NCBI GenBank assembly: GCA_963796685.1
Contig: CAWCMR010000021.1
Location: 13,495-77,494 of the forward strand
Direction: 5' to 3'
DNA: 64,000 nucleotides
Source: an uncultured delta proteobacterium
GTDB lineage: Bacteria; Myxococcota_A; Polyangia; Fen-1088
The stretch's first letter is position 1; each line of letters opens with the position of its first letter. Positions 50,536 through 54,434 of the stretch are shown one piece after another. The position numbers and the translations under genes were made by a program. The notes beneath the pieces are model-generated. The model was not told where the DNA came from and searched no databases. It worked only from the letters and a program-made list of their open reading frames with translations.

Positions 50536-53023
50536 CTGTCGGCTGCAGGCCCGCTGCCAAGAGGATCGGCCATGCCGATCCTTTTCGCATTTACGGTTCA
50601 GCCCGACTATTTTGATGGGAACCCTGGGAGGGTTCCCAAACCCTCCCGCGCTCTGGCTCCGCCGGGCGAAGCCCGGCTACGCCAACGCGTTTGATGGAAA
50701 CCCTGGCCTGAAACCACCTCGCCCCGCGCAGCGGGGAGAGGTCGCCGAGCGCAGCGAGGCGAGTAAGGGGCAGTCACGTTTCATACCTGAAGGATCCGGG
50801 CCTTCGGCCCGGCGGCGGTACTGGGAGGGTTCTGCTCTGCACTCGGCACCTGCCAGCCCGCACTGCCTCCCCCGCGCTTCGCGCGGCCTCGCCATACCCT
50901 CCCGCGATGGTACGCCGCCAGCAAAGCCGGCCGGCTCCCCACGCGATTAGCCCCCCACGAAGACGAACGGGTAACTGACCATTCTCATGGGAACCCTGGG
51001 AGGGTTCCCAAACCCTCCCGCGCTCTGGCTCCGCCGGGCGAAGCCCGGCTACGCCAACGCGTTTGATGGAAACCCTGGCCTGAAACCACCTCGCCCCGCG
51101 CAGCGGGGAGAGGTCGCCGAGCGCAGCGAGGCGAGTGAGGGGCAGTCACGTTTCATACCTGAAGGATCCGGGCCTTCGGCCCGGCGGCGGTACTGGGAGG
51201 GTTCTGCTCTGCACTCGGCACCTGCCAGCCCGCACTGCCTCCCCCGCGCTTCGCGCGGCCTCGCCATACCCTCCCGCGATGGTACGCCGCCAGCAAAGCC
51301 GGCCGGCTCCCCACGCGATTAGCCCCCCACGAAGACGAACGGGTAACTGACCATTCTCATGGGAACCCTGGGAGGGTTCCCAAACCCTCCCGCGCTCTGG
51401 CTCCGCCGGGCGAAGCCCGGCTACGCCAACGCGTTTGATGGAAACCCTGGCCTGAAACCACCTCGCCCCGCGCAGCGGGGAGAGGTCGCCGAGCGCAGCG
51501 AGGCGAGTGAGGGGCAGTCACGTTTCATACCTGAAGGATCCGGGCCTTCGGCCCGGCGGCTGTACTGGGAGGGTTCTGCTCTGCACTCGGCACCGGCCAG
51601 CCCGCACTGCCTCCCCCGCGCTTCGCGCGGCCTCGCCATACCCTCCCGCGATGGTACGCCGCCGGCAAAGCCGGCCGGCTCCCCACGCGATTAGCCCCCC
51701 ACGAAGACGAACGGGTAACTGACTATTCTCATGGGAACCCTGGGAGGGTTCCCATTCCCTCCCGCGCTCTGGCTCCGCCGGGCGAAGCCCGGCTACGCCA
51801 ACGCGTTTGATGGAAACCCTGGCCTGAAACCACCTCGCCCCGCGCAGCGGGGAGAGGTCGCCGAGCGCAGCGAGGCGAGTAAGGGGCAGTCACGTTTCAT
51901 ACCTGAAGGATCCGGGCCTTCGGCCCGGCGGCGGTACTGGGAGGGTTCTGCTCTGCACTCGGCACCTGCCAGCCCGCCCTGCCTCCCCCGCGCTTCGCGC
52001 GGCCTCGCCATACCCTCCCGCGATGGTACGCCGCCAGCAAAGCCGGCCGGCTCCCCACGCGATTAGCCCCCCACGAAGACGAACGGGTAACTGACTATTC
52101 TCATGGGAACCCTGGGAGGGTTCCCATTCCCTCCCGCGCTCTGGCTCCGCCGGGCGAAGCCCGGCTACGCCAACGCGTTTGATGGAAACCCTGGCCTGAA
52201 ACCACCTCGCCCCGCGCAGCGGGGAGAGGTCGCCGAGCGCAGCGAGGCGGGTGAGGGGCTGTCACGTTTCATACCTGAAGGATCCGGGCCTTCGGCCCGG
52301 CGGCGGTACTGGGAGGGTTCTGCTCTGCACTCGGCACCGGCCAGCCCGCACTGCCTCCCCCGCGCTTCGCGCGGCCTCGCCATACCCTCCCGCGATGGTA
52401 CGCCGCCGGCAAAGCCGGCCGGCTCCCCACGCGATTAGCCCCCCACGAAGACGAACGGGTAACTGACCATTCTCATGGGAACCCTGGGAGGGTTCCCATT
52501 CCCTCCCGCGCTCTGGCTCCGCCGGGCGAAGCCCGGCTACGCCAACGCGTTTGATGGAAACCCTGGCCTGAAACCACCTCGCCCCGCGCAGCGGGGAGAG
52601 GTCGCCGAGCGCAGCGAGGCGGGTGAGGGGCTGTCACGTTTCATACCTGAAGGATCCGGGCCTTCGGCCCGGCGGCGGAGAGGGTTCTGCTCTGCACTCG
52701 GCACCGGCCAGCCCGCCCGCCTCCCCCGCGCTTCGCGCGGCCTCGCCATACCCTCCCGCGATGGTACGCCGCCGGCAAAGCCGGCCGGCTCCCCACGCGA
52801 TTAGCCCCCCACGAAGACGAACGGGTAACTGACTATTCTCATGGGAACCCTGGGAGGGTTCCCATTCCCTCGCGCGCTCTGGCTCCGGCGAGCAAAGCTC
52901 GCCTACGCCAACGCGGGTGATGGGATCCCTGACCTGAAACACCTCGCCCCGCGTAGCGAAGCGAAGCGGGGAGAGGTCGCCGAGCGCAGCGAGGCGGGTG
53001 AGCATCTGTGTTCCTAGTCAAGG

Positions 53024-53974
53024 TCAAATCTCCGTGGTTTGCCAGCGCGAGTTAGAGCGCAACATGGCGTTGAGGATGGTGAGCAGCTTGTGCATACAGG
53101 CGACGATGGCGACCTTCTTGAGCTTTCCTGCGGCGACTAGCCGAGCGTGGAATCTGGCGATGACTGGGTTGAAGCGTATGGCAGCTAGGGTGGCCATGTA
53201 GAGGACGTTGCGGACTTCGGTGCGGCCGCCCCAGATGATGCGGCGGCCGCGCAGGGTGCCGCTGTCCCGGTTGAGTGGAGCAACACCGATGAGGGCTGCG
53301 ATCTGCTTGCGGTTGAGGGTTCCAGTCTCAGGGGCATGGGACAGGATGGTGCGAGAGAGGACGGGGCCAGCTCCTGGAACGCTTTGGATGATGTCGTCCT
53401 TGGCTTTCCAGACCGAGGAATTGCCGATGGCCGTGTCGATGTCGTTGTCCACCTCGTCGAGCTGCTTTTCGAGGTAGGAGATGGTCCTGCGGATGGCCCT
53501 CTGCACGCGCTTGGAGGGAGGGTCAGCGCTGAGACGGTTTTTCTCGGCAGTGATCATGTCGACCACCTGCCTGCGCCTGGCGAGAAGGGCGGCAAGCTCC
53601 TGGGTCTCTGCGTCGACAGGCGGGCGGACGGGTGGCCGTATTCGTTCGGCGAAAAGAGCGATCATGGCGGCGTCCAGGGCATCGGTCTTCGCGAGACAGC
53701 CGTTGGCCTTGGCGAAGTCGCGAACGCGTCTGGGGTTGACGACGACAGCGGGCAGGTTGGCAGCGAGGAGCGCCGCAAGCACGCGTCGTTCGAGTCCACC
53801 GGTGGCCTCAAGAACGATGAGGGTGACGTTCAGGGCGGCCAACTCTTTGCAAAGAGCGCGCACCGTGTTGTCTTGATTGGGGGTGGACCAGGCTCTTTTG
53901 GCCGGCAAGACATGGACGTCGAGCGTGGCCTTGGAGACGTCGATACCTACGAATGTGTCAGCTGTTGGTGTCAC
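53024..53974 (-). CDS. IS110 DEDD recombinase
   Basis: GIDVSK, LEATG, KTDALDA, RDSG motifs; GTG start after AAGGAG. Confidence 0.95.
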
Positions 53975-53989
53975 GGGCTCCTTTCGCGA

Positions 53990-54245
53990 AGGACTTCTGC
54001 TCTTGGTATGCCCAGCCTTGCGGAGTATGCGGGCTCGAGGCCCTCTCATCTGTTCGGGCTGCTTGTGAAAGTCGACACGACGACCCTCGCTCACCCACGG
54101 TCTTTGTGACCTGAGGGGCATCGGTCTGTCGTGCCGTTGAATCTCGTCGTGCTCCTTCGCCTTTGGGGGCGAGCGTAGCCCAGCTTTGCTGGGCGAAGCG
54201 AGGGGGGACCGGGGGACTGCGAGCGAGAGCGAGCCAGTCCCCCGT
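53990..54245 (-). ncRNA. Predicted IS110 bridge RNA (ends approximate)
   Basis: Guides in the expected order: TGCCCCT (54114-20), GGGTGAG (54090-96), ACAGATG (54047-53), CAAG (54017-20), matching target and donor. Confidence 0.82.
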
Positions 54246-54434
54246 AAGATACAAGGGGCTGCCACGTTTCATACCTGAAGGATCCGGGCCTTCGGCCCGG
54301 CGGCGGTACTGGGAGGGTTCTGCTCTGCACTCGGCACCGGCCAGCCCGCACTGCCTCCCCCGCGCTTCGCGCGGCCTCGCCATACCCTCCCGCGATGGTA
54401 CGCCGCCGGCAAAGCCGGCCGGCTCCCCACGCGA

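What the first reader, a model, noticed from the sequence alone, without database searches (positions are those of the whole stretch)
52990..54262. IS110 with a fully readable bridge RNA programmed against the host's own hairpin repeat
Seen (minus strand): the empty target is GCAGCCC-CT-CACCC and the circle junction (donor) is ACAGATG-CT-TGTAT. The non-coding left end contains, in order, gaTGCCCCT (same sense as the left target plus core), GGGTGAG (exact reverse complement of core plus right target CTCACCC), ACAGATG (left donor) and CAAG (reverse complement of CTTG). Circularisation also creates TTGACT-N17-TATCTT pointing into this RNA. Established: IS621 uses a CT core, a similar donor, LTG/RTG/LDG/RDG guides and a junction promoter. 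Inference: this is an intact natural bridge-recombinase system with a new target specificity, aimed at a lineage-specific repeat.
Basis: partly seen in the sequence, partly recalled or inferred. Interest (0 to 1): 0.85.

Follow-up and report, generated by a model that had tools for sequence, protein, structure and literature searches.

The report
IS110 element with readable bridge RNA
This is an intact, recently active IS110-family insertion sequence whose left end encodes a typical bridge RNA aimed at an 11-bp site in the host's own hairpin repeats: a correct reading, but of a kind of system already well described.

Summary
Window 53003-54253 (minus strand) is a 1251-bp element, TGTAT...ACAGATG, with CT on both sides. 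It has 7 identical copies in this genome. All 7 lie at (G/A)CCC-CT-CACCC inside REP-like hairpin repeats, and 121 empty sites of this kind exist. It encodes a 316-aa IS110 recombinase (PF01548 + PF02371) whose catalytic D, E, D, D and S align with those of IS621.

The 279-nt left end has the IS621-type two-loop bridge RNA:
- A covariance model built only from 29 relatives hits 54006-54140 at 100.9 bits.
- The four helices covary (91% of cells paired against 70% after shuffling).
- In relatives, the loop columns track each element's own flanks.

- Only 6 nt of the left target guide match natural targets, while the right target guide matches 7.
- The left donor guide misses the core C.
- The right donor guide is discontiguous (AU-ACUCC-G-CAAG).
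- In the free-RNA fold of this sequence alone, the two target guides pair with each other, but that pairing is not conserved.

No circle and no RNA ends could be shown.

Verdict: a new member of a known kind. The side finding worth follow-up is 135-142-bp left-end-only derivatives that end in the guide-coding DNA and outnumber full copies in a sister genome.

The parts
53003..54253 (-). Insertion sequence body, 1251 bp, TGTAT...ACAGATG
   Evidence: There are 7 full copies at 100% identity in G000; one of them is interrupted by an intron.
54254..54255 (-). Left copy of the CT core (junction LT-CT-RD)
53001..53002 (-). Right copy of the CT core (junction LD-CT-RT)
53024..53974 (-). Recombinase gene: GTG start, 316 aa plus stop, AGGAG 6 nt upstream
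   Evidence: PF01548 at 2.7e-23 and PF02371 at 9.6e-17. PDB matches ISCro4 at 2.9e-31 and IS621 at 1.2e-26. D12, E56, D98, D101 and S238 align with the IS621 catalytic positions.
54006..54140 (-). Bridge RNA core (target-binding loop module plus donor-binding loop module)
   Evidence: Covariance model R1, built from 29 relatives without this sequence: 100.9 bits, E 2.6e-24, model positions 1-135 of 135.
54074..54135 (-). Target-binding module. Outer stem GGCACGAC/A bulge/GACC pairs with GGTCGTCGTGTC; inner hairpin GGTC-ACAAA-GACC
   Evidence: Outer helix: 12 pairs, 11 with changes on both sides, 94% of cells paired. Inner hairpin: 70% of cells paired in the MAFFT alignment. Coordinates.
54114..54121 (-). 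Left target guide ATGCCCCT. The part that matches natural targets is GCCCCT, 54114-54119
   Evidence: Same sense as the left flank plus core. GCCCCT matches 10 of 13 left flanks.
54090..54096 (-). Right target guide GGGTGAG (reverse complement of CT-CACCC)
   Evidence: 7 of 7 right flanks read CTCACCC. Coordinates.
54088..54089 (-). Handshake-guide position of the target loop (CG)
   Evidence: Placed by position relative to IS621 nucleotides 81-82. The C can pair with donor position 7 (G) but not with target position 7 (C). This is inference from sequence.
54010..54059 (-). Donor-binding module. Outer stem GCCC/GGGC; inner hairpin GGGC-CTCGA-GCCC
   Evidence: Helices 3 and 4: 94% and 99% of cells paired, and 5 of 8 pairs have changes on both sides. 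Coordinates.
54047..54053 (-). Left donor guide ACAGATG. The next base is A where relatives have C, the base matching the core C
   Evidence: Identical to the last 7 nt of the element.
54017..54028 (-). Right donor guide AT-ACTCC-G-CAAG, discontiguous; followed by handshake position GC at 54015-54016
   Evidence: Same layout as IS621 A157-U158/G161/C162-G165, but with 5 looped-out bases instead of 2. It complements CT-TG-T-AT of the left end.
54246..54251 (-). -10-like half (TATCTT) of the junction promoter
53016..53021 (-). -35-like half (TTGACT) of the junction promoter, 17 nt from the -10 only after circularisation
   Evidence: At least 5 of 6 matches to TTGACA at a 17-nt spacing in 19 of 24 elements with both ends.
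52621..52631 (-). Empty target GCCC-CT-CACCC in the neighbouring repeat unit
50615..54453 (-). Tandem array of 7 units of about 372 bp. Each unit holds a copy of the hairpin repeat, and the element sits in the first unit
   Evidence: Four units carry a mutated site (CACTC or TTACTC).

Best explanation
This is a functional-looking IS110-group insertion sequence of the IS621 type.

Proposed mechanism:
1. The element leaves the chromosome as a circle. Its RE-CT-LE junction is the donor site ACAGATG-CT-TGTAT and also assembles a sigma-70-type promoter, TTGACT-17-TATCTT.
2. That promoter drives a non-coding RNA from the left end. After a leader of about 100 nt, the RNA folds into two stem/internal-loop/hairpin modules.
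3. The first loop carries a left target guide (effective GCCCCU, same sense as the target's left half plus core) and a right target guide (GGGUGAG, complementary to core plus CACCC).
4. The second loop carries a left donor guide (ACAGAUG) and a discontiguous right donor guide (AU...G-CAAG).
5. The DEDD/serine recombinase bound to this RNA pairs the circle junction with GCCC-CT-CACCC sites in the host's REP-like hairpin repeats and exchanges strands at the CT core.

Shown here: the sequence anatomy, copy number and identity, site specificity, helix covariation, guide-flank covariation in relatives, and conservation of the catalytic residues and the split promoter.

Inferred from IS621 work: circle formation, transcription start, RNA-protein binding and the strand-exchange chemistry.
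For: - **Recombinase.** PF01548 and PF02371 are above their cut-offs. PDB sequence matches to ISCro4 and IS621 run over residues 8-308. D12, E56, D98, D101 and S238 align with the residues that the IS621 structure paper names as catalytic.
- **Activity.** G000 has 7 copies at 100% identity. A same-genus genome (G002) has 7 further full copies at 99% at other places.
- **Site specificity.** 7 of 7 right flanks read CTCACCC. 6 of 7 full copies have GCCCCT on the left and 1 has ACCCCT. There are 121 empty GCCCCTCACCC sites against 17.6 expected from base composition, nearly all in hairpin repeats.
- **RNA structure.** On 30 sequences, 24 pairs in 4 helices give 91.0% of cells paired, against 70.2% after shuffling (0 of 500 shuffles reach it) and 33-47% when partners are slid. 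17 of 24 pairs have changes on both sides.
- **Guides.** The loop columns aligned with this element's guides match each relative's own flank. LTG: 4.30 of 6 non-core positions against 2.23 cross-paired (n=20). RTG: 4.91 of 6 against 1.98 (n=23). Examples: CTAATCCT in L028 against GGTATCCT in L030.
- **Covariance model.** A model from 29 relatives only scores 100.9 bits, E 2.6e-24, full length, and gives one hit per full copy in the genome (7).
- **Promoter.** TTGAC(A/T)-17-TATNNT across the junction in 19 of 24 elements.
- **Guide sense.** It agrees with Durrant et al. [quoted passage not shown]
- **Guide layout.** It agrees with Hiraizumi et al. 2024, passages read.
Against: - No circle junction was seen. 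Only assembled contigs were available, and the only joints across the element are empty repeat copies.
- No transcription start or RNA ends were shown. Contigs from two RNA libraries cover 54030-54181, but such libraries can hold DNA.
- Only 6 of the 8-9 nt of the left target guide match natural targets.
- The left donor guide has A where the core C should be matched and where relatives have C.
- In the single-sequence fold the two target guides pair with each other over 8 bp: -55.3 kcal/mol, against -37.1 for the open-loop form.
- The inner hairpin of the target module is only 70% paired in the MAFFT alignment.
- No curated Rfam family for this RNA matched on the sense strand.
Confidence: 0.93

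Rival explanations
1. The element is a true IS110 with a bridge RNA but is now weak or dependent on help. The left donor guide misses the core C. The two C-rich target halves make the target guides pair with each other. Only 6 nt of the left guide are used.
For. [quoted passage not shown]
Against: There are seven identical copies here and seven 99% copies at other sites in a sister genome. The right guide is longer than in IS621 (7 nt against 4), so the total target length is still 11 bp. The guide-guide pairing is not conserved.
Confidence: 0.1
2. The left-end RNA is mainly a regulatory leader or a sense/antisense pair that controls recombinase expression, as was proposed for small RNAs of some IS110 members. 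On this view the matches to the flanks are by-products.
For: The Rfam family sX15 matches the opposite strand of this region weakly here (29.4 bits, E 0.025). It matches strongly in Xanthomonadaceae relatives (107-149 bits). In Xanthomonas, complementary transcripts sX15 and asX7 were detected (passages).
Against: Loop letters change together with each element's flanks while the helices keep pairing. A pure leader does not predict this. An antisense RNA may exist in addition.
Confidence: 0.03
3. The four short matches are chance in a G+C-rich non-coding end.
For: The motifs are short (4-8 nt) and the genome is 64.6% G+C.
Against: The order, the placement in covarying internal loops, the full-length covariance-model hit and the agreement at 7 of 7 copies.
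Confidence: 0.01

Closest known systems
IS621 of Escherichia coli (bridge recombinase; PDB 8wt6 and related entries)
   Same: - Two-domain recombinase with aligned catalytic residues.
- CT core.
- Right donor TGTAT: donor positions 10-14 in the structure paper's passages read T, G, T, A, T.
- Bridge RNA in the left end with LTG, RTG, LDG and RDG in two internal loops, handshake positions and a bulged A in the stems.
- Split junction promoter.
- Insertion into REP elements.
   Different: - The target is split 4+2+5 instead of 7+2+2: LTG effective 6 nt against 9, RTG 7 nt against 4.
- The RDG has 5 looped-out bases instead of 2.
- The LDG does not match the core C.
- There is a leader of about 100 nt before the first module, against a 33-nt 5' stem-loop in IS621.
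- The target sequence differs: IS621's is ATCAGGCCTAC.
ISCro4 transposase (PDB 9t56)
   Same: Best solved-structure sequence match: E 2.9e-31 over residues 8-308.
   Different: Only the protein sequence match was examined. Its RNA and target were not compared here.
ISPpu10 and ISPpu9 of Pseudomonas putida
   Same: They are IS110 members inserted in REP-type intergenic repeats with a stem-loop next to the target. ISPpu9 also moves sub-modules as separate circles (abstracts read).
   Different: No sequence comparison was made here. Whether the hairpin next to the present target adds specificity was not tested.
Relatives found here (L018, L019, L020, L086: 61-68% protein identity)
   Same: Same skeleton, same donor ends (ACAGATG/ACAGACG-CT-TGTAT) and same extra leader.
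   Different: Their guides read TAACCCT or TCGGCCT, and GGGAGAG. L019 and L020 sit at TAACC-CT-CTCCC, which in this genome's repeat lies 12 nt downstream of the present core. This looks like natural retargeting along one repeat.

Membership tests
IS110 family (IS110 group) recombinase | N-terminal DEDD (RuvC-like) domain PF01548 | tested here: met
   82.9 bits against a cut-off of 29. D12, E56, D98 and D101 align with the IS621 acidic residues.
IS110 family (IS110 group) recombinase | C-terminal Tnp domain PF02371 with the conserved serine | tested here: met
   61.6 bits against a cut-off of 21.3. S238 in RDSGT aligns with the ESGS serine of IS621.
IS110 family (IS110 group) recombinase | Site-specific insertion at a short core, with the core found on both sides | tested here: met
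   CT on both sides. 7 of 7 copies lie at (G/A)CCC-CT-CACCC.
IS110 family (IS110 group) recombinase | Long non-coding left end upstream of the gene (IS110 group; the IS1111 group has it on the right) | tested here: met
   The left end is 279 nt and the right end about 21 nt after the stop codon.
IS110 family (IS110 group) recombinase | Circular intermediate with a promoter assembled across the junction | tested here: inconclusive
   The promoter halves are present and conserved. No circle joint appeared in the contigs of 4 runs, and raw reads were not available.
Bridge RNA (IS621 type) | Two modules, each a stem, an internal loop and a hairpin, kept by compensatory changes | tested here: met
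   91% of cells paired, 154 cells with changes on both sides against 42 after shuffling.
Bridge RNA (IS621 type) | LTG same sense as left target plus core; RTG complementary to core plus right target | tested here: met
   6 nt and 7 nt respectively. The sense rule comes from the passage read.
Bridge RNA (IS621 type) | LDG same sense as the left donor; RDG complementary to core plus right donor | tested here: met
   ACAGATG matches 7 of 7, with the core C not matched. The RDG AU/G/CAAG is discontiguous as in IS621.
Bridge RNA (IS621 type) | Handshake guides pair with position 7 of the non-cognate DNA and not with the cognate DNA | tested here: met
   Target-loop C against donor G7 (target C7 would not pair). 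Donor-loop G against target C7 (donor G7 would not pair). Sequence reading only.
Bridge RNA (IS621 type) | Match to a covariance model of the family | tested here: met
   My own model, built from 29 relatives: 100.9 bits. Rfam 15 gave no sense-strand family match. The published models were not available.
Bridge RNA (IS621 type) | The RNA is made and binds the recombinase; guide changes redirect recombination | not testable with these tools
   The only data are contigs from RNA libraries over 54030-54181.

The most novel reading that the evidence does not exclude
The DNA that encodes the left target guide is itself a recombination site, in two registers.

- **Register A.** GATGCCC-CT copies the target's left half perfectly. 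This must be so, because the guide has the same sense as the target.
- **Register B.** Three bases upstream, ACCGATG-CC copies the left donor end ACAGATG-CT in 6 of 7 positions.

Use of these sites yields 135-142-bp left-end-only derivatives. These are either left in place after partial excision or moved in trans as mini-elements. They outnumber full copies in a sister genome and create perfect new targets that are hit again, giving tandem left ends. If so, guide-coding DNA is a built-in hotspot for half-match recombination in bridge systems.
Probability: 0.45. Interest if true: 0.55.

Novelty: new member of a known kind. Interest (0 to 1): 0.35.

Why it matters
As a bridge-recombinase system it adds one more natural guide/target pair to a family in which bridge RNAs have been predicted for most members (85.7% of IS110s; passage). 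By itself that changes little.

It is still a clean natural case for three points of current interest:
1. **How target length is shared between the guides.** Here the split is 4+2+5, against 7+2+2 in IS621.
2. **Natural retargeting.** Sister elements sit 12 nt apart on the same repeat.
3. **Partial, half-matched products in genomes.** Recent preprints describe these from circles and junction mapping.

If the guide-coding DNA is confirmed as a recurrent pseudo-site, this matters for designing bridge RNAs expressed in cis from donor DNA.

Tried and rejected
- **Rfam.** A search of 52400-54900 with permissive thresholds found no sense-strand family, only sX15 on the opposite strand below its cut-off.
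- **Circles and RNA ends.** One search for sequencing runs and one laying of 4 runs. All runs were assembled contigs. The two joints that skip the element (53000 to 54254 and 52997 to 54254) have short sides (22 and 30 nt) and fit empty copies of the repeat, so they do not show excision. No joint went back from the right end to the left end. The RNA-library contigs that stop near 54179-54181 sit beside repeated hairpins and loose ends, so I do not read them as a 5' end.
- **Was the 372-bp tandem array made by the recombinase?** Rejected. The unit junction lies at an ATAGTC microhomology inside the 3' end of the upstream gene, not at the CT core.
- **Is the guide-guide pairing of the single-sequence fold a conserved helix?** Rejected.
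- **Is 'GATGCCC|ACCC' a decayed perfect scar?** This is not excluded, but the exchange at ACCGATG-CC explains both the CC and the CT variants with one rule.
- **Papers on left-end-only derivatives ending in guide-coding DNA.** Two full-text searches found work on modular and partial IS110 circles (read) but no statement of this particular site.
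Full report
**Observation.** On the minus strand the window reads ...GTGGCAGCCC-CT-TGTATCTTACGG... at 54262-54240 and ...GGAACACAGATG-CT-CACCCGCCTCG... at 53014-52990. The element body is therefore 53003-54253 (1251 bp), with a CT on each side. The next unit of the surrounding repeat, 372 bp away, carries the uninterrupted site GACAGCCC-CT-CACCC at 52621-52631.

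**The protein.** The gene runs from a GTG at 53974, six bases after AGGAG, to a stop at 53024-53026 and gives 316 aa. The longer frame that stays open through the left end (413 aa) is a G+C artefact. The Pfam domain starts at residue 9, and the tblastn matches of the 80 related loci start at query residues 1-9 in most rows. Pfam gives DEDD_Tnp_IS110 (2.7e-23) and Transposase_20 (9.6e-17). The only solved-structure sequence matches are the ISCro4 and IS621 transposases, over residues 8-308. D12, E56, D98, D101 and S238 stand opposite the acidic residues and the serine that the IS621 structure paper names as the composite active site (passages).

**Copies and target.** The genome (G000: 26 contigs, 7.3 Mb, 88.6% complete) gave 16 DNA matches.
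- Seven are full copies at 100% identity. One of them is split by a 2075-bp insertion.
- A 25-nt probe of the left end occurs at 13 places; a 25-nt probe of the right end occurs at 7.
- All 7 right ends are followed by CTCACCC.
- Of the 13 left ends, 10 are preceded by GCCCCT, 2 by ACCCCT and 1 by GCTCCT. Among the 7 full copies the split is 6 and 1.
- The flanks beyond these letters belong to at least three different repeat families, so the shared 11 bp is what is recognised.
- The empty 11-mer GCCCCTCACCC occurs 121 times against 17.6 expected from base composition. Almost always it lies a few to 25 nt before the hairpin CCTCTCCCCGC-NNNN-GCGGGGCGAGG.
- The 136-nt unit around the empty site folds into a long imperfect hairpin with the target near a small apical side stem. 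The energy z-score is only -1.6.
- Insertion into REP elements is the known habit of IS621 and other family members (passages; abstracts).

**The RNA: comparative evidence.** A scan of one genome per species found 144 related stretches, of which the best 80 loci were kept.
- I looked at the upstream regions of 35 loci. In 33 I found the conserved donor-loop anchor.
- I aligned 29 of them with the window sequence. I left out L017 (near-identical), L033 and L036 (an insertion between the modules) and L096 (cut by its contig end).
- I wrote four helices from this element's own sequence and counted them on the alignment. The result was 91.0% of 711 cells paired, against 70.2% after shuffling (0 of 500 shuffles as high) and 33-47% when the 3' partners are slid by 1-3 columns. 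17 of 24 pairs have changes on both sides.
- The weakest helix is the inner hairpin of the first module (70%). MAFFT aligns loops of unequal length poorly there.
- The four guide segments lie in the two internal loops between these helices.
- A covariance model built from the 29 relatives alone, with RNAalifold's own structure, finds 54006-54140 on the minus strand at 100.9 bits (E 2.6e-24), full length. In the whole genome it finds exactly the seven full copies.

**The guides.** According to the passages read:
- the left target guide pairs with the bottom strand, so it has the sense of the top strand;
- the right target guide pairs with the top strand;
- each guide includes the core;
- in IS621 these guides are 9 and 4 nt long.

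In this element:
- The loop reads CCG-ATGCCCCT-CA on the 5' side and CCGT-GGGTGAG-CG-A on the 3' side.
- GCCCCT equals the left flank plus core. GGGTGAG is the exact complement of CT-CACCC.
- The target is thus split 4+2+5 rather than 7+2+2, but is again 11 bp long.
- The donor loop reads GA-ACAGATG-AGA. The 7-mer equals the last 7 nt of the element, but the next base is A where relatives have the C that matches the core.
- On the 3' side the donor loop reads CCCGC-AT-ACTCC-G-CAAG-GC. This is the IS621 layout A157-U158 / two looped-out U / G161 / C162-G165 / handshake 166-167, with five looped-out bases instead of two. It complements CT-TG-T-AT of the left end.
- The positions equivalent to the handshake guides fit the published rule at position 7. 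The target-loop C can pair with donor G7 and not with target C7. The donor-loop G can pair with target C7 and not with donor G7. This is a sequence reading only.

**Do the loop letters act as guides?** For every relative whose ends could be located, I compared the aligned loop columns with its own flanks.
- Over the six non-core positions, the left guide matches its own flank at 4.30 positions, against 2.23 for all cross pairings (20 elements).
- The right guide matches at 4.91 positions against 1.98 (23 elements).
- Four rows (L041, L062, L080, L083) are out of register by one or two columns in the MAFFT alignment and count against the match.
- Clear cases: L028 has CTAATCCT in both loop and flank. 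L030 has GGTATCCT in both. L078, L080, L039 and L030 have right guides matching 8-10 nt of flank.
- L027, from an unrelated MAG, carries the same effective left-guide letters (GCCCCT) and an identical right guide, and sits at ...CGCCC-CT-CACCC. The specificity is therefore not unique to this lineage.
- The closest relatives (L019, L020, L086; 61-66% protein identity) read TAACCCT or TTGCCCT, and GGGAGAG. L019 and L020 sit at TAACC-CT-CTCCC. In this genome's repeat, CTCACCCTAACCCTCTCCCCGC, that position is 12 nt downstream of the present core.

**A caveat on the fold.** Folded alone, the left end gives the outer and inner stems of the first module but also pairs the two target guides with each other over 8 bp. 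The energy is -55.3 kcal/mol, against -37.1 for the open-loop structure. This follows from both target halves being C-rich. Across the 30 sequences that pairing is at chance level: 48.4% paired, 45.3% after shuffling, 29-58% when slid. It is therefore not a conserved feature. It may still cost this element some activity.

**The promoter.** Joining right end, core and left end gives TTGACT, 17 nt, TATCTT. Among the 24 elements with both ends located, 19 have at least 5 of 6 matches to TTGACA exactly 17 nt before a TATNNT that starts at the third base of the left end. This matches what Durrant et al. describe (passage).

**What could not be shown.** Only assembled contigs of public runs were on hand.
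- They show the element in soil, peat and rice-paddy metagenomes.
- Contigs from two RNA libraries cover the guide region (54030-54179 and 54056-54181, with 3-7 differences).
- There is no circle joint and no usable RNA end.

**Left-end-only derivatives (side finding).** G000 has no right-end-only pieces. It has seven left-end-only pieces at six places, one place being split by a group II intron. A same-genus genome, G002, has 7 full copies plus one cut by a contig end, and 14 left-end-only pieces that all stop at element positions 136-141. Reading the junctions gives two registers.
- **Register A ends ...GATGCCC-CT, that is, at the core of the guide-coding DNA.**
  - It is followed by CACCC and the normal right flank in 2 cases in G000.
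  - It is followed directly by TGTAT, the start of another left end or a full copy, in 3 cases in G002. Two of these have identical flanks and may be one locus.
- **Register B ends ...ACCGATG.**
  - It is followed by CC-CACCC in 4 cases (1 in G000, 3 in G002).
  - It is followed by CT-CACCC in 2 cases (G002).
  - Two more cases differ by one C.
  - ACCGATG matches the true left donor ACAGATG in 6 of 7 positions, so an exchange at the two-base core explains both variants.
- **Six pieces are degenerate or end elsewhere.** L106, L113, L116 and the intron-bearing copy have decayed junctions, and two pieces in G000 stop at positions 43 and about 105. A seventh short piece (L014, ending at about position 61) was not read at its junction.
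- **Two are internal-deletion forms that keep both ends.** L107 has left end 1-141 plus about 55 nt of the right end. L117 in G001 has left end 1-125 plus about 41 nt.
- **A G/A difference at position 110 divides the G002 pieces.** Seven carry the letter of G002's own full copies. Eight carry the letter found in G001's full copy. Not all of them, then, can be fresh deletions of the present full copies.

I read these pieces either as in-place partial excisions or as mini-elements moved in trans. I cannot decide between the two.

Partial circles that reuse one true terminus, recurrent internal end points, reinsertion of partial fragments and half-match recognition have been described:
- for ISPpu9 (abstract);
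- in two 2026 preprints (abstract; abstract and section 9).

The phenomenon is therefore in print. I did not find it stated that the recurrent internal end point is the guide-coding DNA (searches; supplements closed).

**Verdict.** The system is an ordinary, well-preserved member of the IS621-type bridge recombinases, not a new kind.

Noticed in passing
G000:C25:1109421-1109562, C8:212939-213081, C25:234099-234236; G002 loci L104-L116; G001 L117: Left-end-only derivatives of 135-142 bp end inside the DNA that encodes the left target guide, in two registers (GATGCCC-CT and ACCGATG-CC/CT). There are 14 in G002 against 7-8 full copies. Some stand in tandem with another left end or with a full copy.
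   Followed up: partly
L097 249-2323 (G000:C11:75849-77923); also upstream of G000:C25:1543396: A 2075-bp group II intron sits in antisense orientation at position 55 of the element's left end, at two loci. It has a 554-aa ORF with RVT_1 and GIIM, and Rfam matches RF02001 and RF00029. It separates the junction promoter from the guide modules. The same intron end also abuts a host repeat at C25 near 626460.
   Followed up: partly
window 50615-54453: Seven tandem units of about 372 bp each repeat the last 30 nt of the upstream gene (ORF 54435-55022, minus strand) plus the intergenic hairpin repeat. The unit junction is at an ATAGTC microhomology. Four of the seven units have a mutated target (CACTC or TTACTC).
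   Followed up: yes
G000: C11 (minus-strand index 225522-228542), C25:1540253-1542994, C25 (minus-strand index 1063115-1068690), C15:369346-371615: At least five of the seven full copies lie inside tandem arrays of target-bearing units, with periods of about 102, 180, 186, 255 and 372 bp. Whether this only reflects the number of targets in arrays was not tested.
   Followed up: no
L088 1309-1466, L091 64-222, L096 1-133 (minus strand of each locus): The Rfam family sX15 (RF02234) matches, at 107-149 bits, the strand opposite to the predicted bridge RNA of IS110 elements in Xanthomonas and Stenotrophomonas. The 2011 paper reports sX15 and asX7 as complementary transcripts with 10 homologues in S. 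maltophilia K279a, so asX7 may be a bridge RNA seen before the concept existed.
   Followed up: partly
L019, L020, L086 against the G000 repeats listed: The closest relatives use guides for TAACC-CT-CTCCC. In the repeat CTCACCCTAACCCTCTCCCCGC this lies 12 nt downstream of the present element's core. This looks like natural retargeting along one repeat.
   Followed up: partly
L041, L052 (core TT); L083 (core read as AC): Some relatives have a core other than CT. In L038, L041 and L052 the aligned left-guide columns do not end in the core letters.
   Followed up: no
G000:C10:5664-6131: A second, distant IS110-family DEDD domain (39.9 bits) is the only other family member in the genome.
   Followed up: no
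window 54140-54253: The leader before the first guide module is about 100 nt. It holds three G+C-rich hairpins shared only with the closest relatives (L018, L019, L020, L086). Other relatives have about 20 nt there.
   Followed up: no
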